Shown here piece by piece: positions 1 to 40,870 of a DNA stretch of 40,870 nucleotides (within the stretch, counting starts at the first letter, position 1; each line of letters opens with the position of its first letter). Position numbers and translations under genes: made by a program. The stretch covers positions 1-40,870 of the IMG/VR virus record IMGVR_UViG_2651869533_000044; one strand, given 5' to 3'. Source of the stretch: a virus. The notes under the pieces were generated by a model that was not told the origin of the DNA, did no database searches, and saw nothing but the letters and a program-made list of their open reading frames with translations.

Positions 1-101
1 TTACATAATTGCCTAGAATATGCAAAAAAGTCTTCGTCAAATTCTTTATTGCTCATAAAATCCTTATAAAATCAACATCTTCGGAATAGTATCCATTTGA
101 A
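1..101. repeat. 101-bp terminal direct repeat (copy 1), either a circular-assembly overlap or terminal redundancy
   Basis: Bases 1-101 (ttacataattgcc...tccatttgaa) recur exactly at 40770-40870. The minus-strand ORF starting at 40825 equals one starting at position 56, so genes read through the junction. Confidence 0.9.
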
Positions 102-421: not shown

Positions 422-492
422 TTGAGGGAGAAGGATTCGAACCTCCGCCGCCGGAGCCAAATTCCGGAGTTCTACCACTGAACTATCCCTCA
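422..492 (-). tRNA. tRNA-Gln (anticodon UUG)
   Basis: Minus-strand cloverleaf. Acceptor UGAGGGA/UCCCUCA, D arm GUUC-AGUGGUA-GAAC, anticodon arm CCGGA-AUUUGGC-UCCGG, 4-nt variable loop, T arm GGAGG-UUCGAAU-CCUUC, discriminator A, no encoded CCA. U1:A72 is typical of bacterial tRNA-Gln. Confidence 0.75.
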
Positions 493-493
493 T

Positions 494-1660
494 CTAATCC
501 TTATATGGGTCATAATTTCGCGCATCTGCCATTGCTACCCCAATAGGTTTCAATGTATGCAATATTTTCACTGTGTCTTTGTGCGCGTCCAGAACTTCTT
601 CAATGCGTTTATACGCTTGCGGAGCTTCGTCCACGTCAGCCCCTCTGAGTTCAACTCCGGCTCTTTCAACCCAAGATCGCATCGCGTCTTTGCTAATAAG
701 TCCATCTGTGAGCTGTCTTCCAGTTTTTCTGTCTCTCTTTCCCTTGGCCTGATTTCTTCCCATACAGCGTCCTGCGCCGTGTATGGTCGATCGTAAGGAT
801 TGGATGGATGACTCGTGCTCGCCTCCCTCGAGTATGACGCTGATATCTCCCATAGATCCTCCAACAAAGCTTTTTTGACCAGGAAAGGCAGGAGTAGATC
901 CTTTTCTGATAACCCAGAGATCTCTACCAAAATGGTGTTCTTTCCAAGCAAAGTTGTGGTGGTTGTGAATCTCTTCGACGATGTTTCCTCTAAGAATTTG
1001 CGCAACTCGTTGACATACCCAATCTCTCCCTGCATAAGCATATCGTCCAGCAAGCTCCATACATTTGAGGTATGTGATCCCAAGCTCAGAGCTTTCATCA
1101 AAAACCACCGGATCTGCATGTACTCCATCTACGCCTCCTCCTTCTCTGACAAAATGAGTAGCGATAGAGTGTCCAAGGCCGCGAGAACCAAAATGCACAC
1201 CCACCCATACTCTGTCCAACTCATCGACGAAAATGTCAACATAGTGATTGCCACCGCCGACAGTACCAAGTTGGTTATAAGCTTTGTCTTTAAGATCTTT
1301 GAGGAGGTCGAGTTCAGCCCATATGCCTTCGTCAAAAATTTCGTGATCCACTTTCTCATTGTTTTGCCTTCCAATTCCAAAGCTAATGTGCTTTTGGATT
1401 TCGTTCATATTCCGATATATTCCTTCACGCACTACAGAAGCATCGCAATCCAATCTAACAGCTTTATTCCCACATGCGATGTCATAGCCCACACCATTGA
1501 CACAAATAGCCTTATCAAGCCCAATAACACTACCAACGGGTAGACTATAGCCAAGGTGCCCATCAGCACACAAAGCGCCACATACCGCATTTGATTTCTC
1601 CATGGCAGATTTCATCTGAGACATTACTTCATCTTCAACAATTCCGAAGGTCTTGATCAT
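494..1660 (-). CDS. rtcB: RtcB RNA 3'-phosphate/5'-OH ligase
   Basis: 388 aa with the RtcB signature blocks GYDIACG, GGGNHYVDIF, HFGSRGLGH, IHNHHNF, IRKGSTPA, GGSMGD and HGAGR. Confidence 0.93.
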   Translation of the reverse strand: MIKTFGIVEDEVMSQMKSAMEKSNAVCGALCADGHLGYSLPVGSVIGLDKAICVNGVGYDIACGNKAVRLDCDASVVREGIYRNMNEIQKHISFGIGRQNNEKVDHEIFDEGIWAELDLLKDLKDKAYNQLGTVGGGNHYVDIFVDELDRVWVGVHFGSRGLGHSIATHFVREGGGVDGVHADPVVFDESSELGITYLKCMELAGRYAYAGRDWVCQRVAQILRGNIVEEIHNHHNFAWKEHHFGRDLWVIRKGSTPAFPGQKSFVGGSMGDISVILEGGEHESSIQSLRSTIHGAGRCMGRNQAKGKRDRKTGRQLTDGLISKDAMRSWVERAGVELRGADVDEAPQAYKRIEEVLDAHKDTVKILHTLKPIGVAMADARNYDPYKD

Positions 1661-4835: not shown

Positions 4836-5492
4836 TCAAATTTCCACTCTTATAGCACCGTTTACTGGATCATAATTCTCATCCATGCGGGATGCATTAA
4901 CAAATATTGTCTGCAAACCTAAAATATCCGTTTGTTTTCCGAAAGATTCGTGAATATGACCAAATACATGTAACTTTGGATTTATCTTGATAACCGTATC
5001 TTTAAGCGATTTGCTTCCTACTGAAGAATTAGCACTTCGTCTATTGCAAACCTTGTCTAGTATTCCAAAAGGAGGGGAGTGAGTTACTAAAATATCGATA
5101 TCTTTAGGAATTAAAGACCATTTTTCAGACAACTCTTCATCTGTATCAACGGTGAAAGCTTTACAATTTGAGTTCATACCCTTGAAAGTTTTAGTCCAAG
5201 GAGAGCCCCATATCTTTAGATGTTGAAATTCGGTTCCTGAGTCGCACAGATATTCAAAAGAACCAGAAACCTTGCCTATAGGTCCTTGGTAATTCTCTTT
5301 ATTGGCTTTGTTGTCGTGATTTCCGGCGATTACTATCTTTTTCTTATATTTTTGTTCATCAACCCACTCGAAGAAGTCAAAGCATTCAGAAAGAGTGTCT
5401 GATAAAGTCCAATCTCCAGCTACGATAAGAAGATCACCTGAAGGAAGTTTCGGATGATCTCCATGCATATCTGATATGCATGTGATTTTCAT
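4836..5492 (-). CDS. calcineurin-like metallophosphoesterase
   Basis: 218 aa with all five metallophosphatase blocks: ISDMHG, VAGDWT, GNHD, THSPP, GHIHE. Confidence 0.88.
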   Translation of the reverse strand: MKITCISDMHGDHPKLPSGDLLIVAGDWTLSDTLSECFDFFEWVDEQKYKKKIVIAGNHDNKANKENYQGPIGKVSGSFEYLCDSGTEFQHLKIWGSPWTKTFKGMNSNCKAFTVDTDEELSEKWSLIPKDIDILVTHSPPFGILDKVCNRRSANSSVGSKSLKDTVIKINPKLHVFGHIHESFGKQTDILGLQTIFVNASRMDENYDPVNGAIRVEI

Positions 5493-6460
5493 AATTCATA
5501 GTCCAGGTTGATGGATTTAAAGCTAATCATCTTGCCGTTGATGTGCTCCCAAGATCTGATAACCACACCTTCACGGATATGTCCATTGGCATAATTGCCG
5601 GTAGCGAGCGAACCAATGTCGGTTTCGTCGAAATTATCCCTTACTGTTAGAATCCGTACGGTTGGAAATCCAATCTTCTCACAAAAGTCTATGAAATCGT
5701 ACCCGTCCAGATAGCTCCTCTCTTCGATATTGTAGGCGCTGAACGCTAACCCATCTATCTCAGAAAACCCCATTGGATTCTTTTGAATCTTGGGACCACA
5801 AGTCTCCCACTGAAGGGCGTATCCTTCCGGGAGAATCTCTCTGAGATTATACTTGTTGGCAACCTTCCAATAGCCATTATCACCCTCTTCCAACTCTAGA
5901 TTTCTACTGCACACACCAAACTCGCCTTTCCACTTATAAGCCGTTGTAGAAGATCCGTCGGCCTTCTCTGTGACGTAGTATCGATGTGCCCATAAAGACG
6001 CTATATCTTCTTCACAGCGCTGCCAGTTAGGCTCGTCTGTCTTTGGTATAAATGAGGGGAAGTTTCCTTTGCATTTCCCCTCTAAAGAGGCGGGAACCGG
6101 CTTAACATATTTGATAACTCCCATAACTTCGGTGAGGTCATCTCCAATCTCATCATCTGATGCAACCCAAGGTGTGATTACGCACTCAGAAGGAGCGCCT
6201 TTGAAACGACGCATCTTAACGCGCCAATTAGAGCTTCTTAGAAATTGTACAAGAGAAGATTCGGGAACTATTGCGTCCTGAAGATAGACAAGGCAGGTGT
6301 GACCTACTTCGAAGTCTTCTTTCCGAACGACTCCGCGCCACTTACCGCCTTTTCCGCACACAACAGTAGCAGAAACAATGAAATCAGCTCCTGGAATAGC
6401 TTCCATTGAGATAATCTTACCGACGAAGACAAGATTTTTATTATTCTGTTGAGTGTCCAT
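5489..6460 (-). CDS. ATP-dependent RNA ligase, DraRnl (DRB0094)-like
   Basis: 323 aa. An N-terminal OB-like segment is followed by nucleotidyltransferase motif I TEKADGSS (KxDG), motif IV EGVVIR and motif V ISFKSIN. There is a 4-nt overlap with the phosphoesterase gene. Confidence 0.75.
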   Translation of the reverse strand: MDTQQNNKNLVFVGKIISMEAIPGADFIVSATVVCGKGGKWRGVVRKEDFEVGHTCLVYLQDAIVPESSLVQFLRSSNWRVKMRRFKGAPSECVITPWVASDDEIGDDLTEVMGVIKYVKPVPASLEGKCKGNFPSFIPKTDEPNWQRCEEDIASLWAHRYYVTEKADGSSTTAYKWKGEFGVCSRNLELEEGDNGYWKVANKYNLREILPEGYALQWETCGPKIQKNPMGFSEIDGLAFSAYNIEERSYLDGYDFIDFCEKIGFPTVRILTVRDNFDETDIGSLATGNYANGHIREGVVIRSWEHINGKMISFKSINLDYEL

Positions 6461-7709: not shown

Positions 7710-7880
7710 GGCTGGGCATGGCGAGGCCAGGCGAGTCAAGGCATGGCAAGGCTAGGCTGGGCATGGCCAGGCGAGGCTTTGCGTGGCGAGGCAAGGTTTA
7801 TTGGGGGCGAAAGCTCATATTTCAAGGCTGGGCGAGGCAGGGCAGGGCATGGCTAGTCGGGGCTAGGCATGGCGAGGTTT
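7710..7880 (+). repeat. (GGCNN)n pentamer arrays 1 and 2 (18 + 11 units) joined by a 26-nt GNRA-hairpin linker
   Basis: Array 1 is 7710-7799, the linker ATTGGGGGCGAAAGCTCATATTTCAA is 7800-7825, and array 2 is 7826-7880. Both arrays hold perfect 5-nt register within the block and end in GGTTT. Confidence 0.9.
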
Positions 7881-7903: not shown

Positions 7904-8491
7904 ATGACAAAAGTAAAAGCAAATATTGAAATCGAAGGATGCAAACCATTTCTATGGCATACTTTTCCATTGGACGCTCTTTCAACCACCAAGAAAAGAG
8001 AAGGAACGACGGGAGATAACAAATCAGAATGGAAAGACACCGTATTGATGGACAATGATCGACGCCTCTACATTTACAACAGCTATCTTTTGTCATCGAT
8101 TGCCGATGGAGGAAAAGAAATTAAGCAGGGTCGCGGCAACATCTCCAAAAAGGTATCATCAACTCTTGACATCGAAGAATATAGACTTTTTCTCACAGAT
8201 CTTACCGTACCATCTGAAGAAGACTTAACAAGAAATGACAGCGATCTCGTTTATTTAGACGTTCGAGCTGTTGTCAATCCAATGACAAAAGGCAGAAATT
8301 TGCGCTATCGTATCGCTGCCCGTCCAGGTTGGAAGCTTAAATTCGTAGTAGGCTGGGATGATCGCATTCTCTCTAAAGATCAGATCAAATCTTGTATAGA
8401 AAACGCCGGAGATTTACAAGGAATTGGAGACGGCAGAGGTTTAGGATTCGGAAGATTTAAACTTCTGAAATTTGAAATGATTAAGAATTAA
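7904..8491 (+). CDS. hypothetical protein (195 aa), possibly a RAMP-type (Cas7/Csm3- or Cas6-like) RNA-binding fold
   Basis: AGGAA lies 6 nt upstream of the ATG. It is one of only two ORFs of 60 aa or more in the 2.9-kb island. The C-terminal GIGDGRGLGFG fits the RAMP glycine-rich loop GhGxxxxxGhG. The fold assignment is from memory of RAMP patterns, not from an alignment. Confidence 0.55.
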   Translation: MTKVKANIEIEGCKPFLWHTFPLDALSTTKKREGTTGDNKSEWKDTVLMDNDRRLYIYNSYLLSSIADGGKEIKQGRGNISKKVSSTLDIEEYRLFLTDLTVPSEEDLTRNDSDLVYLDVRAVVNPMTKGRNLRYRIAARPGWKLKFVVGWDDRILSKDQIKSCIENAGDLQGIGDGRGLGFGRFKLLKFEMIKN

Positions 8492-8500
8492 TTTTTTCAA

Positions 8501-8742
8501 GGCTGGGCGAGGCTAGGCAAGGCAGGGTTTATTGGGGGCGCAAGCCCATATTTCATGGCTTGGAGTGGCAAGGCCAGGCATGGCAAGGCACGGCTAGGCA
8601 AGGCACGGCGTAGCCAGGCATGGCAAGGCAAGGCAGGGCAGGGCAAGGCAAGGTTTATTGAGGGCGTGAGCTCATTTTTCGGGGCAGGGAATGGATGGGC
8701 AAGGCGAGGCTGGGCTAGGCCAGGCTAGGCAAGGCAAGGTTT
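8501..8742 (+). repeat. (GGCNN)n pentamer arrays 3, 4 and 5 (6 + 20 + 12 units) joined by two 26-nt GNRA-hairpin linkers
   Basis: Arrays are 8501-8530, 8557-8656 and 8683-8742. Linkers are 8531-8556 (ATTGGGGGCGCAAGCCCATATTTCAT) and 8657-8682 (ATTGAGGGCGTGAGCTCATTTTTCGG). Confidence 0.9.
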
Positions 8743-32985: not shown

Positions 32986-33750
32986 TTAAGCGCTAGTAAA
33001 GTCCGCATCTAGAACTGCTTCGTACAACCAGACATCATCTGTATTAACCATTAGCGATGAACCAAGAGTTAAACCAAGGATACTTGTGTTATATAGAGGA
33101 GCATTCAAGATTTGGCTTGTGCTAGTCTGTGCTGGAGGGAATCCGGGAGCGTTTCCAGAGGTGATTAGACCGCCCTGAAGCGCTGGGATACCCGTAACAA
33201 TATTTGCAATACCTCCGCTGCTATAAGCAGTGAAAGAAGTAGTGTTAATATTTACTGTAAAAGAAGTTGTAGAAGTGATGCTTTGAACAACACCAGAAAG
33301 CGTGTTGATCTGAGTCATACCGACTACATTATGGAAAGATACAACTGTTACTCCGATATCATTGCTGGTAAAGGCATGAGTAGCTGTAATGCTTGCATTA
33401 GCTGCTTGGCTGATTCCGGTGATTGTCAAGTTAGATGACGGGAATACTGAAGAACCTGCTGTTGTATATGGAGTGATGCCATTCGACGTCAAAAGAATTT
33501 TTTGAACCGAATATTGGATGTCAACGGGAGGAGTTGTCGCTACTGAGACTGAGTAAGATTTCTCAATAAACGCTTCTCCATTTCTCATCTGAGGCATCCA
33601 AAAAGCACTCAAAATACCGCCTGTTACGGGCTGAGCTACTGTGAGTGTTTGGTTCCACATAGTAAATCTTGTAGGATAGAATCCAAGACCAAGATTTTGA
33701 GCTACTCCACCTGTTGCAACTGTTAGGGAGCCATTTTTTATAATTGCCAT
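32986..33750 (-). CDS. capsid decoration / head fibre-type protein (254 aa)
   Basis: It lies immediately downstream of the capsid gene and contains the GM-x-x-(I/L)N..F-x-(V/I)-x-I-(N/D)-(S/T)-(S/T)-x-F-x-x-Y-x-x-GG domain seen in phage head-decoration proteins (recalled E1 FCCH-like annotation). Confidence 0.45.
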   Translation of the reverse strand: MAIIKNGSLTVATGGVAQNLGLGFYPTRFTMWNQTLTVAQPVTGGILSAFWMPQMRNGEAFIEKSYSVSVATTPPVDIQYSVQKILLTSNGITPYTTAGSSVFPSSNLTITGISQAANASITATHAFTSNDIGVTVVSFHNVVGMTQINTLSGVVQSITSTTSFTVNINTTSFTAYSSGGIANIVTGIPALQGGLITSGNAPGFPPAQTSTSQILNAPLYNTSILGLTLGSSLMVNTDDVWLYEAVLDADFTSA

Positions 33751-33759
33751 GATCTCTCC

Positions 33760-34441
33760 TTATGCCGAAGCAAGTGTTGAAGTGATTCTAGTGATCCAGT
33801 TGTCATTGAGGATTCGAGTTGCAAATGGGTATTTGTAACCAACAGTTCCACGCTGATTGAGAGGATCGGCAGTACCGGAAGCCCCGAGAGGTTTCACAAT
33901 AAATTCTGCTTCTTTGGCTCCAAGACGAATTACCCCATAAGCTTCTTGTCCGACCATAAAGGATGAATAGACGTTTGGAGTTGCTCCGTTACTGTAACCA
34001 TTTGTGTTCAAAAGCCAGCGAACGTTACGAGTAGCGCCCCATTCAGCTTCCAAAGCATTCATTGGATTTGGATAGTTTGCAGCTTGAATGAACGAGCTAA
34101 CAGCTTCCAAATCGGACTGCATATCTACGGACATGAAGCCCCAATAGCTTGATCTTACGGGACTTGTGCCGAACTTGTTTTCTCCAGGGAGAGGGTTCGT
34201 CATGAGTCTTGCGTTACCTTGACGGAGAGCTACGATTGCAGTCTGAATATCTGCATCAGTGATCTCTGTCGGGGTATTGCCATTAAGACCATACTGACAT
34301 GCGATAGTTGAGGCCGTAGAGACCATCATATCGCGGATCAGCGTGTCCAAAGTCAAACCAAGTTGGAGTGACAAGACTTTAGTTGCCTCATTGAGGACAC
34401 GGTCCTGGACCACATATTGTACCTGATCGGTGCCGATCGGC
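33760..34441 (-). CDS. major capsid protein (HK97-fold family), exon 3 of 3
   Basis: The exon is in frame from 34441 (G completing an AUG codon, then PIGTDQVQYVVQDRVLNEATK...). The C-terminal 226 aa is capsid-like (..GAKEAEFIVKPLG..DPLNQRGTVGYK..). The ORF-track entry 33760-34413 begins at an internal GTG. Confidence 0.8.
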
Positions 34442-34762
34442 CTGTTACTTTATTGACCCTATGTGATAAGGGCGGAGGGTCTTGTTATTCCCCTCTCTGG
34501 ATATTTCTACCCAGTGCGGACTATCGCATCTGCTTTCGCAGTCCAATTGTTTAGTCTCTCACGGTGAACATTAATCACATTCTTTTGTGCCATATCGGTA
34601 TCAACAAAAATGCAAGGCATATGAGCGAACGTTTTGAAGTCTTCCGCTCTCTTAATACTCATAAACCTTTAAATATCCTTCCGCCTTGTCTTCCGTCTGC
34701 GTTAAGCAGCGAGGAGTTCCAAGTCAATTAAATCGGATTTATTTATGTCACCACTACCGTTA
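34442..34762 (-). ncRNA. group I self-splicing intron 2 (321 nt, no ORF)
   Basis: P1 pairs exon GUCACCAU with IGS GUGGUGAC (34754-34747), giving U.G at the splice site. The core has GUUCACCGUGAGAGACUAAAC (P7 5' strand), CUGC-GAAA-GCAG (P8) and AGAUGCGAUAGUCC (P7 3' strand). The intron ends ..AAAGUAACAG, with the terminal G at 34442. Confidence 0.8.
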
Positions 34763-34876
34763 ATGGTGACAAACGAACCATACCATTGAATTTGCGCTTT
34801 AAAGTCGGTGACTGAAAGCTGATCCCCTGGAGGAGTTTGCCCATCTGTAAGTGGAACTGTCGCTGCTGTTCGAGCG
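34763..34876 (-). CDS. major capsid protein, exon 2 of 3 (114 nt)
   Basis: Encodes (L)ARTAATVPLTDGQTPPGDQLSVTDFKAQIQWYGSFVT(M), the conserved L-T-(D/E)-G-x-T-P...YG block of this capsid family. Phase 1+37 codons+2 fits both junctions. Confidence 0.78.
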
Positions 34877-35586
34877 CTGTTACTTTTTTGACCTTGTTCC
34901 TTAAGGCGGGGAAGCTCTTCGGCATTCCCTCTCATTGTTACCAATGAGTCCAGACTATCGCATCTCCCAATGCTGGGAGTCCCTGAATTTAGTCGTTCAC
35001 GGTAGATTTTAATATTATCAGTATGGCATACTACCAAAGTATGGAATACCATATACATCAACTTAGCTATCTCGCTGGCATTATGGATGGCGAGGGAACT
35101 ATTTCCATGAATGATAAGAGAATCATGAAGAGAAAATCTCAAGGCATCAGAAAGACTAATAAAGTCTATAGAGCAAGAGTTAACTTCTCCACTAATGTTA
35201 CCGTATGCAACACCGATCAAAGATTGATCGATTGGCTCATTGCTAATTTTGGAGGAGCTGCTAGCTATTCCAAAAGACAACATGAACATTGGAAGCAAAA
35301 GATAACATGGATTATGCCGAGAAAGAGTATTGCTAAAATTCTTACTGACATTCTTCCATTTCTTGTCTTGAAAAAAGAACAAGCTAAATTGATGATTGAG
35401 GCGAGAAAAAGCTTCGATGACAACCAAAAACAACTTTTGACTTCTGATGAAGTCTACAATCGCCGTCTTGAGATTTGTAATCTTATTCGCCTTCATAATA
35501 AAAAAATCCTTCCGCCTTGTTGTCCTTAAGCTGCCTCAAGGGGTTCCAAGTCAATTATCGAGGATTTATCCACGCCAACATTTTCT
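34877..35586 (-). ncRNA. group I self-splicing intron 1 (710 nt) carrying an opposite-strand LAGLIDADG gene
   Basis: P1 pairs exon CACGCU with IGS GGCGUG (35576-35571). The core has ACCGUGAACGACUAAAU, P8 CUCCCA-GCAU-UGGGAG, AGAUGCGAUAGUC and P9 CUCAUUG-GUAA-CAAUGAG. It ends ..AAAGUAACAG, with the terminal G at 34877. The 5' and 3' blocks are homologous to intron 2. Confidence 0.8.
35023..35529 (+). CDS. LAGLIDADG homing endonuclease (single-motif, I-CreI-size), antisense to its host intron
   Basis: 168 aa. LSYLAGIMDGEGTISM is a clear LAGLIDADG motif, and the downstream KILTDILPFLVLKKEQAKLMIE block is typical. It lies wholly inside intron 1 but on the plus strand. Confidence 0.8.
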   Translation: MAYYQSMEYHIHQLSYLAGIMDGEGTISMNDKRIMKRKSQGIRKTNKVYRARVNFSTNVTVCNTDQRLIDWLIANFGGAASYSKRQHEHWKQKITWIMPRKSIAKILTDILPFLVLKKEQAKLMIEARKSFDDNQKQLLTSDEVYNRRLEICNLIRLHNKKILPPCCP

Positions 35587-35753
35587 AGCGTGCCATATCT
35601 TCGGAAGACCATCTGGTCGCCGGAGTTAAGTGGTATCTGTCTCTTTTGAGCGAACAAATCGTAGATGAAATAGGGTCTTGCGAGCGCTAGTAACAATCTA
35701 TCGAAGTATGTTCGAACCTCTGGAGGCAGTTGGGTAAGGCCTGTAATTGCCAT
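35587..35753 (-). CDS. major capsid protein, exon 1 of 3 (167 nt)
   Basis: MAITGLTQLPPEVRTYFDRLLLALARPYFIYDLFAQKRQIPLNSGDQMVFRRYGT(L). The unspliced frame hits a stop 20 codons past the predicted splice site. GGAT..ATG context follows the scaffold gene. Confidence 0.8.
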
Positions 35754-40639: not shown

Positions 40640-40825
40640 TCATCTAGGCTCCAAAAACATCGCTCTTTCATGTTTAGTATATTTTGAAACAGAAACTAAG
40701 TAGAAATACTTGCCGTCGTCTGGGCTAAAAAGACAGCTATAGTTCTTGTCTCTTTTCTTATCAACTAAGTTACATAATTGCCTAGAATATGCAAAAAAGT
40801 CTTCGTCAAATTCTTTATTGCTCAT
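40640..40825 (-). CDS. hypothetical protein (61 aa)
   Basis: Its start lies inside the terminal repeat (equivalent to position 56) and overlaps the stop of ORF 53-394 across the circle junction. Confidence 0.5.
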   Translation of the reverse strand: MSNKEFDEDFFAYSRQLCNLVDKKRDKNYSCLFSPDDGKYFYLVSVSKYTKHERAMFLEPR

Positions 40826-40870
40826 AAAATCCTTATAAAATCAACATCTTCGGAATAGTATCCATTTGAA
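40770..40870. repeat. 101-bp terminal direct repeat (copy 2)
   Basis: Identical to bases 1-101. Confidence 0.9.

What the first reader, a model, noticed from the sequence alone, without database searches (positions are those of the whole stretch)
33760..35753. Major capsid gene split into three exons by two group I introns
The capsid N-terminus (35753-35587), a 38-codon middle piece (34876-34763) and the C-terminal 226 codons (34441-33760) lie on the minus strand in three separate frames. They are separated by 710 and 321 nt. Both spacers have group I hallmarks. Each P1 helix has the U.G wobble at the splice site: CACGCU pairs with GGCGUG, and GUCACCAU pairs with GUGGUGAC. Both also have the conserved ..GACUAAA.. 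and AGAUGCGAUAGUC P7 strands, P8/P9 hairpins with GNRA loops, and a terminal G in ..AAAGUAACAG. Removing them joins ..FRRYGT-L-ARTAATVPLTDGQTPPG.. and ..WYGSFVT-M-PIGTDQVQYVVQDRVL.. in frame, giving a 963-nt, 320-aa capsid protein. Virion assembly would therefore depend on two self-splicing events in the most highly expressed late gene.
Basis: partly seen in the sequence, partly recalled or inferred. Interest (0 to 1): 0.85.

Follow-up and report, generated by a model that had tools for sequence, protein, structure and literature searches.

The report
Capsid gene with two self-splicing introns
The major capsid gene of this complete ~40.8-kb uncultivated phage is interrupted by two group I (self-splicing) introns, one carrying a homing-endonuclease gene on the opposite strand; the feature is real and well supported, but it is a new example of a known arrangement, not a new kind of system.

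Summary
Confirmed, with corrected 3' splice sites. On the minus strand the capsid gene is exon 1 35753-35587, intron 1 35586-34871 (716 nt), exon 2 34870-34763, intron 2 34762-34433 (330 nt) and exon 3 34432-33760.

The spliced CDS is 948 nt with the stop (315 aa, not 320). That is the same length as uninterrupted genes of relatives with up to 97% protein identity. Its 3' splice sites ("AACAG|") are 6 and 9 nt too early, and they break the frame in same-site introns of relatives.

Both introns belong to a large group I family in uncultivated phages. P3, P4, P5, P6, P6a, P8, P9 and P9.1 are backed by strong covariation: about 95% of cells paired, against 40-50% in slid controls. P7 is invariant and forms the P3/P7 pseudoknot. 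Rfam's RF00028 model misses the family.

Intron 1 carries an I-CreI-like LAGLIDADG gene (35023-35529) antisense in loop L6a. Intron 2 keeps only a remnant.

Capsid-gene introns and multi-intron phage genes are already known (LittleE, Tuc2009, Twort). The less expected side observation is that antisense endonuclease genes in this family keep the capsid-sense reading frame open.

The parts
35587..35753 (-). Capsid exon 1 (codons 1-55 plus the first two bases of Leu56). It ends in U 35587.
   Evidence: The ATG at 35753 is preceded by AAGGA. tblastn HSP for residues 1-56. Alignment A1. The last 6 nt, CACGCU (35592-35587), form P1.
34871..35586 (-). Group I intron 1, 716 nt. The 5' core half is 35586-35503 (IGS GGCGUG 35576-35571, P3, P4, P5, P6 and the P6a 5' strand). 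Loop L6a is 35502-35011. The 3' core half is 35010-34871 (P6a', P6', P7 GACUA 34994-34990, P3', P8, P7' UAGUC 34957-34953, P9 with a GUAA loop, P9.1, P9.2 and the AAAAGUAACAG tail). The terminal G is 34871.
   Evidence: Helix coordinates. Model R1 hits the two halves at 101.3 and 36 bits, but both window introns were in the R1 seed. Covariation of the family. P10 is UGUU (35580-35577) paired with AACA (34870-34867). Boundaries come from intron-less relatives and same-site introns.
35023..35529 (+). Single-motif LAGLIDADG homing-endonuclease gene (168 aa, motif LAGIMDGEG), antisense to the intron. It fills loop L6a. Its last ~10 codons and its TAA stop overlap the P6a, P6, P4' and P5 strands.
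   Evidence: phrog_5046, E 1.2e-20. Pfam PF00961, 19.7 bits, E 0.0016, below the 23.1-bit cut-off. I-CreI and its engineered variants in the PDB, E 5e-6 to 0.01. Homologues sit in 22 other capsid-gene introns.
34702..35496 (-). Capsid-sense 'shadow' ORF (264 aa), exactly codon-aligned with the antisense endonuclease gene. Its AUG at 35496 lies 10 nt after GGAAGGA. It runs through L6a and the 3' core half, continues in frame through exon 2, and stops at the UAA in L5 of intron 2.
   Evidence: No stop in this frame across the endonuclease span, against 10 and 17 in the other two frames. No credible Pfam domain. The source's gene caller called it as a gene (P0135).
34763..34870 (-). Capsid exon 2, 108 nt (third base of Leu56, codons 57-91, first two bases of Ile92). 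It ends in U 34763.
   Evidence: tblastn HSP for residues 57-92. Alignment A1. The last 8 nt, GUCACCAU, form P1 of intron 2.
34433..34762 (-). Group I intron 2, 330 nt. IGS GUGGUGAC 34754-34747; P3 34737-34731 with 34548-34542; P4-P6; P6a 34678-34672 with 34572-34566, enclosing a 99-nt L6a insert (34671-34573); P7 GACUA 34556-34552 with UAGUC 34523-34519; P8 with a GAAA loop; P9 with a GAAA loop; P9.1; P9.2. The terminal G is 34433.
   Evidence: R1 full-length hit 34442-34749 at 175.7 bits, but this intron was in the seed. Coordinates. P10 is CGGU (34759-34756) paired with ACCG (34431-34428). Same-site introns in L193 and L201 also end in G, and P10 co-varies with the exon in L193.
34507..34662 (-). 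51-aa sense ORF in L6a of intron 2, preceded by AAAGG. Its first 17 nt and leader (GGUUUAUGAGUAUUAAG) are identical to the start of the shadow ORF in the endonuclease-bearing same-site intron of L201. The insert is therefore read as a remnant of a deleted endonuclease gene.
   Evidence: No Pfam match.
33760..34432 (-). Capsid exon 3 (third base of Ile92, codons 93-315 and the TAA stop).
   Evidence: tblastn HSP for residues 93-315. The spliced CDS of 948 nt equals the length of six intron-less genes.

Best explanation
The window is a complete phage genome with a 101-nt terminal repeat. Its N4-gp56-type major capsid gene carries two mobile group I introns.

**Splicing mechanism (inferred from established group I chemistry).**
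- Each intron folds into a group I ribozyme on the late capsid transcript.
- An external guanosine attacks after the U of the P1 U.G pair, at 35587|35586 and at 34763|34762.
- The freed exon end, held by P1 and P10, then attacks after the terminal G, at 34871|34870 and at 34433|34432.
- The resulting 945-nt reading frame encodes a 315-aa capsid protein reading ..FRRYGTL-TAATVPL.. and ..SFVTI-TDQVQY..
- Because the capsid protein is essential, both splicing events must be efficient.

**Mobility (inferred).**
- Intron 1 is probably mobile. Loop L6a holds an I-CreI-like LAGLIDADG endonuclease gene on the opposite strand, which presumably cuts intron-less capsid alleles of co-infecting relatives and drives homing.
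- Intron 2 belongs to a different sub-lineage of the same family. It has lost its endonuclease gene and keeps only a 99-nt remnant.

**What is shown and what is inferred.**
- Shown: exon collinearity, boundaries, RNA architecture with covariation, endonuclease homology, and recurrence in other contigs.
- Inferred: self-splicing activity, homing, and how the antisense endonuclease gene is expressed.
For: **The exons form one capsid gene.**
- The joined exons match phrog_1357 over profile positions 22-345 of 356 in one stretch.
- There are 728 homologues. The uninterrupted ones are 310-318 aa at 73-94% identity.
- With the corrected junctions the CDS is 948 nt, as in six intron-less relatives, and aligns to them without gaps at 73-83% nucleotide identity.

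**The boundaries follow group I rules.**
- U precedes both 5' splice sites and G ends both introns.
- P10 has 4 bp in each intron.
- In same-site introns of relatives, P1 and P10 change in a compensatory way: CACGCU/GGCGUG becomes GACGCU/GGCGUC in L192, and exon ACCG/CGGU becomes AACGG/CCGUU in L193.

**The RNA structure is supported by covariation.**
- RNAalifold on a plain MAFFT alignment of 14 cores recovers P3, P4, P5, P6, P6a, P8, P9 and P9.1. Of 38 pairs, 30 show compensatory changes.
- With the P7 pseudoknot added, 95.5% of cells are paired, against 40-45% for slid controls and 0 of 500 shuffles.
- On 136 distinct family members, 94.7% of cells are paired against 42-50% for slid controls, and 37 of 38 pairs are compensatory.
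- P7 (GACUA/UAGUC) is invariant.

**The endonuclease and the assembly.**
- Endonuclease homology.
- The same two-intron arrangement occurs in an independent contig (L067 = L193).
- The window's own ORFs occur exactly in other public assemblies.
- The genome is complete.
Against: - No RNA-seq, RT-PCR or peptide evidence for the junctions is available.
- Rfam RF00028 gives no hit on the window, even at E<=10 and on intron 2 alone. A family member, L023, reaches only 28.4 bits against a gathering score of 50.
- P3 of intron 1 has one C.A mismatch.
- No promoter or Shine-Dalgarno sequence was found for the antisense endonuclease gene, so its expression, and hence present-day mobility, is unproven.
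- The Pfam LAGLIDADG_1 score is below the curated cut-off.
Confidence: 0.93

Rival explanations
1. The introns are real, but splicing uses the reader's 3' sites (after the G of AAAGUAACAG). This would give a 320-aa protein with an extra AR at junction 1 and MPIG in place of I at junction 2.
For: Both alternatives are in frame in this window, and a G precedes each site.
Against: - None of the 11 aligned relatives has the extra residues.
- In same-site introns the AACAG-to-exon distance is 4 nt (L001, L193), 5 nt (L192) or 10 nt (L193 intron 2).
- P10 pairs only with the corrected exon starts.
Confidence: 0.02
2. The capsid gene is a decaying pseudogene, or the contig is a mis-assembly or chimera, and no functional capsid is made from it.
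For: No expression data are available. The exact spliced protein is absent from the 15-billion-protein collection.
Against: - The genome is complete with a terminal repeat.
- The exons keep up to 97% protein identity to intact genes, with no frameshift or stop.
- All ribozyme core elements are intact.
- The same arrangement is in an independent contig (L067).
- The window's exon-1 and shadow ORFs recur exactly in other assemblies.
- No second capsid gene was seen in the ORF map.
Confidence: 0.03
3. The intervening sequences are removed by a protein-dependent route, for example endonuclease cleavage followed by the phage's own RtcB or RNA ligase, or they are inteins or bypassed by recoding. They are not self-splicing.
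For: The phage encodes RtcB (494-1660) and an RNA ligase (5489-6460). Rfam's group I model does not score the introns.
Against: - A complete, covariation-supported group I core, with a U.G pair at the 5' site, a terminal G and P10, makes an extra machinery unnecessary.
- Stops in the upstream exon frame inside both introns exclude inteins and read-through.
- RtcB lies next to a tRNA gene, which fits tRNA repair.
Confidence: 0.02

Closest known systems
Capsid-gene intron of mycobacteriophage LittleE (Cluster J; Pope et al. 2013, PMC3706429)
   Same: An intron in the major capsid gene of a tailed phage, with U at the exon end and G at the intron end. It has a LAGLIDADG-like reading frame on the bottom (antisense) strand. 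Splicing was shown to be efficient in a very highly expressed late gene.
   Different: LittleE has one 819-bp intron, not two. It is a high-GC temperate siphovirus with an unrelated capsid sequence. The authors left the intron type 'most likely group I'. Here the architecture is established by covariation, and the intron belongs to a large family spread over many sites of one capsid gene family.
Staphylococcus phage Twort orf142 with three group I introns (Landthaler & Shub 1999, title cited)
   Same: Several group I introns lie in one phage protein-coding gene. Neighbouring related introns create a risk of exon skipping. Here exon 2 is 108 nt, so skipping would stay in frame.
   Different: From my own knowledge, Twort introns are subgroup IA2, with P7.1/P7.2. 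In the family here P3' is followed directly by P8 and there is no P2. Exon skipping was not tested here, and the P10 pairings argue for fidelity.
Tetrahymena-type group I core (classical R and S elements) and Rfam RF00028
   Same: P7 is GACUA/UAGUC, followed by AAA and preceded by ..GAUAGUC, as in the classical consensus (my knowledge, and the RF00028 consensus shown). The order of helices and the P3/P7 pseudoknot are the same.
   Different: The window does not reach any RF00028 score. The family has no P2, a short P5, an insertion site in L6a, and P9.1 and P9.2 hairpins. A conserved AAAGUAACAG tail lies 4-10 nt before the terminal G. The subgroup was not assigned.
I-CreI-type single-motif LAGLIDADG homing endonucleases
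   Same: About 165 aa with one LAGLIDADG motif (LAGIMDGEG aligned to LAGFVDGDG), encoded in a loop of a group I intron.
   Different: The gene lies on the strand opposite to the intron. Sequence similarity is weak (E 5e-6 to 0.01). Activity and target site are untested.

Membership tests
Group I intron | The last 5'-exon nucleotide is U, paired with G of the internal guide sequence (P1). | tested here: met
   CACGCU/GGCGUG and GUCACCAU/GUGGUGAC. P1 co-varies with the exon sequence in relatives and at other insertion sites.
Group I intron | The intron ends with a guanosine (omega-G) immediately before the 3' exon. | tested here: met
G 34871 and G 34433, set by collinearity with intron-less genes.
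Group I intron | Core helices P3-P9 in canonical order, with a P3/P7 pseudoknot. | tested here: met
   Predicted without guidance by RNAalifold. 95.5% and 94.7% of cells are paired against 40-50% for slid controls; 30 of 43 and 37 of 38 pairs are compensatory. P7 itself is invariant, so it is neither supported nor contradicted by covariation.
Group I intron | P10 pairing between the guide region and the start of the 3' exon. | tested here: met
   UGUU/AACA in intron 1 and CGGU/ACCG in intron 2. The pairing is compensatory in L193 (CCGUU/AACGG). The helices are short, at 4 bp.
Group I intron | Score at or above the gathering threshold of Rfam RF00028. | tested here: not met
   No hit at gathering or at E<=10. 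A family member, L023, scores 28.4 bits (E 0.0012, gathering score 50), and another canonical member, L045, scores nothing. Others report the model as incomplete for phage introns (PMC11878797).
Group I intron | Guanosine-dependent self-splicing in vitro. | not testable with these tools
   Needs transcription and splicing assays.
Group I intron subgroup IA2 (typical of T4, SPO1 and Twort introns) | Extra helices P7.1/P7.2 between P3' and P8. | tested here: not met
   The P3' columns 150-156 are followed directly by the P8 columns 157-183 in alignment A2. The definition of IA2 is from my own knowledge.
LAGLIDADG homing endonuclease | LAGLIDADG motif with an acidic catalytic residue, and homology to family members. 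| tested here: inconclusive
   The motif LAGIMDGEG aligns to I-CreI LAGFVDGDG. phrog_5046 gives E 1e-20. Pfam PF00961 gives 19.7 bits, below the 23.1-bit cut-off.
LAGLIDADG homing endonuclease | Cleaves the intron-less allele at the insertion site. | not testable with these tools
   Needs an enzyme assay. Intron-less alleles that could serve as targets exist.
N4-gp56-type (HK97-fold) major capsid protein | Full-length collinear homology to family members. | tested here: met
   phrog_1357, E 3e-40 over the whole length. Homologues at up to 97% identity, named 'N4-gp56 family major capsid protein' by JGI. The fold itself was not modelled.

The most novel reading that the evidence does not exclude
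In this intron family, selection keeps the endonuclease gene readable on both strands when it lies antisense. The capsid-sense strand then carries a ribosome-binding site and an AUG at the 5' edge of loop L6a, followed by an open frame that spans the whole endonuclease gene.

In 18 antisense endonuclease genes, the codons that would create sense-strand stops (TTA, CTA, TCA) make up 0.7% of codons. They make up 4.2% in the four sense-oriented homologues and 4.7% in the window's ORFs of 150 aa or more.

The most novel reading is that this 'decoy' ORF is translated on the capsid pre-mRNA. Translation would keep ribosomes on the ~500-nt unstructured loop and so protect the most highly expressed late transcript from Rho-dependent termination, RNase attack or misfolding. 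That would be a previously undescribed accommodation between a mobile intron and its host gene.
Probability: 0.3. Interest if true: 0.7.

Novelty: new member of a known kind. Interest (0 to 1): 0.45.

Why it matters
- **Annotation.** Gene callers mis-annotated this essential gene. The public records hold a 75-aa fragment and a 264-aa artefactual ORF. The same will happen for many related phages, which distorts capsid-based classification and gene counts.
- **Detection.** The introns belong to a large, well-structured group I family that the standard Rfam model does not detect. Model R1 and the alignments made here could recover hundreds of split phage genes.
- **Biology.** The capsid gene of this phage group is a hotspot with at least a dozen insertion sites and up to three or more introns per gene. 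This makes it a natural system for studying the homing cycle of invasion, endonuclease decay and intron loss.
- **Open question.** If selection does maintain the orientation-specific open frame over antisense endonuclease genes, it points to an unrecognised constraint on introns in highly expressed bacterial-type transcripts.

Tried and rejected
- **Rfam scans.** The whole window at gathering threshold, the region at E<=10, and intron 2 alone all gave no group I hit. I treat this as a sensitivity limit, because true family members score at most 28 bits.
- **GenBank phage DNA searches.** Near and distant modes gave no match, so there is no cultured close relative.
- **Exact look-up of the spliced 315-aa protein.** It is absent, so there is no RNA-derived or intron-less twin to prove the junctions.
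- **Host inference from GTDB genomes.** Three MAG contigs are assigned to three unrelated taxa: Aquaspirillum, Chthonomonas and Acidobacteriaceae. This is not informative.
- **Promoter scan for the antisense endonuclease gene.** Nothing convincing was found upstream of 35023. A TAATAT 7 nt before the ATG might make a leaderless mRNA, but it is not conserved in L001.
Rejected.
- **Intein, read-through or separate-gene readings.** Rejected because of in-frame stops and because exon 2 has no start signal.
- **Intragenic duplication of one intron.** Rejected. The two cores are 67% identical, and each is closer to introns in other contigs at 71-75%.
- **Subgroup assignment.** Not achieved. IA2 is excluded by the absence of P7.1/P7.2.
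Full report
**1. What is in the sequence**

Read on the minus strand, 35753-33760 holds three open pieces of a capsid gene in three frames, separated by two stretches full of stops.
- It matches PHROG 1357 (major head protein) in a single stretch over almost the whole profile (E 3e-40).
- It finds 728 homologues. The uninterrupted ones are 310-318 aa at 73-94% identity, and JGI names some 'N4-gp56 family major capsid protein'.
- GenBank phages hold only distant relatives at about 25-32% identity, and no similar DNA.

The window has an exact 101-nt terminal direct repeat, so it is a complete genome of about 40.8 kb. Portal, terminase and tail genes lie on the same strand as the capsid gene.

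**2. Correcting the junctions**

The relatives read FRRYGTL-TAATVPL and SFVTI-TDQVQY.

The only boundaries that satisfy both this alignment and the group I rules are:

| Part | Window coordinates (minus strand) | Length |
|---|---|---|
| Exon 1 | 35753-35587 | 167 nt |
| Intron 1 | 35586-34871 | 716 nt |
| Exon 2 | 34870-34763 | 108 nt |
| Intron 2 | 34762-34433 | 330 nt |
| Exon 3 | 34432-33760 | 673 nt |

- The spliced CDS is 948 nt with the stop (315 aa). This equals the gene length in six intron-less relatives, and it aligns to them without gaps at 73-83% nucleotide identity.
- Both 5' exons end in U and both introns end in G.
- In same-site introns of other contigs this distance is 4, 5, 9 or 10 nt. 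Splicing at AACAG would therefore shift the frame or meet a stop there.
- P10 also supports the corrected sites. It is UGUU/AACA in intron 1 and CGGU/ACCG in intron 2. In L193 the exon change to AACGG is matched by CCGUU in the guide region.

**3. Are they group I introns?**

Rfam gives no hit on the window at any setting. I therefore tested the structure by comparison with related sequences.
- A scan of viral contigs for the R...S motif pair (GACTAAA ... GATGCGATAGTC) returned more than 120 contigs.
- A scan for capsid relatives returned 80 loci.
- tblastn across all loci showed 63 uninterrupted capsid genes. It also showed 54 distinct intervening sequences inside capsid homologues, at about a dozen positions: residues 56/57, 87/88, 92/93, 102-104, 112-119, 143/144, 180/181, 225-228, 246, 258/259 and 290/291.
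- A plain MAFFT alignment of 14 cores was folded by RNAalifold without guidance. It gave the long-range P3, then P4, P5, P6, P6a, P8, P9 and P9.1, with compensatory changes in 30 of 38 pairs.
- With the invariant P7 (GACUA/UAGUC) added as a pseudoknot, 95.5% of cells pair. Slid controls give 40-45%, and 0 of 500 shuffles reach the observed value.
- A covariance model built from this alignment (R1) found 175 copies in 100 loci. On 136 distinct sequences, 94.7% of cells pair against 42-50% for slid controls, and 37 of 38 pairs are compensatory. That alignment is fitted to the model, so it leans towards the structure. The unguided result does not have this bias.
- By eye, P9.2 also co-varies: CCUA/UAGG, CCAC/GUGG, CCAUA/UAUGG and CCCUG/CAGGG.
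- At every insertion site inspected, P1 pairs the local exon end, always finishing in U.G.

The order of helices, the P3/P7 pseudoknot, the P7 and J8/7 sequences, the U.G pair, the terminal G and P10 together define a group I intron.

The Rfam failure is a sensitivity problem. A bona fide family member, L023, reaches only 28.4 bits and another, L045, scores nothing. A recent study notes that RF00028 is incomplete for phage introns (PMC11878797).

The family has no P2 and no P7.1/P7.2, so it is not IA2. I could not assign a subgroup. R1 finds no further copy elsewhere in the window.

**4. The two introns differ**

Their cores are 67% identical, and each is closer to introns in other contigs. 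Intron 1 is 73-75% identical to same-site introns. Intron 2 is 71-74% identical to L193 and L027. They are therefore independent insertions, not a duplication.

*Intron 1*
- Loop L6a holds a 168-aa + strand ORF (35023-35529) with the motif LAGIMDGEG.
- It matches phrog_5046 (E 1e-20), Pfam LAGLIDADG_1 (below the curated cut-off) and I-CreI structures.
- It lies antisense to the intron. Its last codons and its stop overlap the P6a, P6, P4' and P5 strands.

*Intron 2*
- It has only a 99-nt L6a insert.
- The start of that insert is identical over 17 nt to the 726-nt, endonuclease-bearing intron at the same site in L201.
- L193 has a 234-nt version with a minimal loop.
- Site 56/57 shows the same series: 716 nt with the endonuclease gene here, and 345 nt with a remnant in L192.

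This is the expected homing cycle of invasion, endonuclease decay and, in most relatives, absence of the intron.

The two-intron arrangement recurs in an independent contig (L067 = L193). The window's own fragment ORFs occur exactly in other assemblies. This argues against an assembly artefact.

**5. Mechanism**

The steps below follow from group I chemistry and are inferred, not shown.
- Guanosine attacks at the two U.G sites.
- The exons are then ligated after the terminal G of each intron.
- The 315-aa capsid protein is translated from the spliced late mRNA.

Both insertion sites lie in the most conserved parts of the protein (invariant columns), which is typical of homing-endonuclease targets.

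Exon 2 is 108 nt, so joining exon 1 to exon 3 would stay in frame. The guide region of intron 1 pairs with exon 2 and not with exon 3, which should limit such skipping. This was not tested.

How the antisense endonuclease gene is transcribed is unknown. No promoter or Shine-Dalgarno sequence was found.

**6. Comparison with what is known**

- Group I introns in phage capsid genes are documented. The mycobacteriophage LittleE capsid intron is efficiently spliced and carries a bottom-strand LAGLIDADG-like ORF. The same paper cites a capsid-gene intron in lactococcal phage Tuc2009 (PMC3706429).
- Antisense endonuclease genes are known in nuclear rDNA introns (PMC9548176).

The finding is therefore a new member of a known kind. 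Three things are new in degree:
- a phage capsid gene with two introns;
- membership in a large, previously unmodelled intron family;
- the concentration of that family in one capsid gene family. Of the 150 best R1 hits, 79 lie in or beside capsid homologues.

Some relatives carry three or more introns. L066 has three R1 hits interleaved with capsid HSPs.

**7. A side observation that may matter more**

- Of 22 endonuclease homologues in capsid-gene introns, 18 are antisense.
- In those 18, the capsid-sense strand has a long ORF exactly codon-aligned with the endonuclease gene.
- That ORF starts at an AUG with an upstream purine-rich Shine-Dalgarno-like motif (GGAAGGA, AAAGGA or AAGAGG). The AUG lies 12-20 nt after the P6 5' strand where that strand was located.
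- Endonuclease codons that would give sense-strand stops (TTA, CTA, TCA) are 24 of about 3,500 (0.7%) in antisense genes, and 8 of the 18 genes have none.
- The same codons are 32 of 754 (4.2%) in the four sense-oriented genes and 4.7% in the window's ORFs of 150 aa or more, a set that includes some spurious and shadow ORFs.
- The aligned sense frame has 0-5 stops, against 4-43 in the other two frames. For sense-oriented genes the aligned opposite frame has 4-12 stops.
- A broader scan of all 205 sources gave 0.62% (n=20 antisense), 6.8% (n=2 sense) and 3.3% (n=21 with no intron core nearby).

Two caveats apply. The sequences are related, so these are not independent counts. The sense-oriented control group is small.

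The ORF product has no recognisable domain.

The pattern suggests selection for an open, translatable sense frame across the loop. A role in keeping ribosomes on the pre-mRNA (against Rho termination, RNases or misfolding) is my speculation only.

**8. Verdict**

My confidence that these are two functional group I introns yielding a 315-aa capsid protein is 0.93. The novelty is modest, and interest is moderate (0.45).

Noticed in passing
window 34702-35496 (-) over 35023-35529 (+); also L001, L002, L157, L184, L193, L050, L051, L098, L024, L057, L068, L106, L114, L118, L121, L201, L007: Antisense LAGLIDADG genes in this intron family keep the capsid-sense, codon-aligned frame open. TTA, CTA and TCA codons are 0.6-0.7% of codons in antisense genes, against 4-7% in sense-oriented homologues. 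A Shine-Dalgarno-like motif and an AUG sit at the 5' edge of L6a. In the window, the exon-1 frame stops at the UAA 35528-35526 in L5, 30 nt before that AUG.
   Followed up: partly
L003-L122 and L123-L202 (IMG/VR contigs): The intron family is very abundant: 175 R1 hits in 100 loci, and up to 6-7 per locus in L015, L020 and L074. About half the hits lie in or beside N4-gp56-type capsid genes, at about a dozen different codon positions. L066 has three hits interleaved with capsid exons. L020 has five hits just upstream of a capsid match that starts at residue 104. Rfam RF00028 misses nearly all of them.
   Followed up: partly
window 34573-34671; L192 3168-3514; L193 3117-3352; L201 2274-3001: Both insertion sites show a decay series: introns of about 720 nt with the endonuclease gene, about 330-345 nt with a remnant that keeps the 3' end of the endonuclease gene, and a 234-nt minimal form. 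Most close relatives have no intron at all (63 of the loci examined).
   Followed up: partly
L055 746-1039 and L072 4248-4617 (loop L6a of capsid-gene introns): Some endonuclease-less members carry short sense ORFs with CxxC...CxxC spacing, read directly from the DNA. An example is MVCDKCKKEIPRGHVCLGNASNTKVTCTNC in L055. These are possible small zinc-ribbon peptides encoded in the intron loop.
   Followed up: no
window 422-492 (-), 494-1660 (-), 5489-6460 (-): A tRNA gene lies directly beside an RtcB-type RNA ligase gene (phrog_1075, E 2e-74), with a second RNA ligase (phrog_968) nearby. This looks like a tRNA-repair module, perhaps against host anticodon nucleases. It is not needed for group I splicing.
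   Followed up: no
window 7760-7880, 8491-8611, 8617-8737 (+): Three copies of a ~120-nt element, with 84% mean column identity. Each is built of GGCNN pentamer arrays on both sides of a conserved GGTTTATTGGGGGCGNAAGCTCATATTTCA core. They flank the + strand ORF 7904-8491 (phrog_4652, unknown function). They may be an origin or a protein-binding array.
   Followed up: partly
window 1-101 and 40770-40870: An exact 101-nt direct terminal repeat, so the window is a complete phage genome of about 40.77 kb (or a circular assembly overlap).
   Followed up: no
window 34423-34440 and 34861-34876 (minus-strand RNA): At both 3' splice sites the last intron bases can pair with the first exon bases: CGAUCG/CGAUC around G 34433, and CGCU/AGCG around G 34871. 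This places the terminal G in a hairpin loop. It may be a chance palindrome, part of a pseudo-palindromic endonuclease target, or a 3'-site presentation element.
   Followed up: no
window 32986-33750 (-) and the next gene downstream in L001/L002: The gene just downstream of the capsid gene hits Pfam E1_FCCH (E 2e-7). The same family is recorded for the equivalent genes of relatives. This is an unexpected domain for a head-decoration-like position.
   Followed up: no
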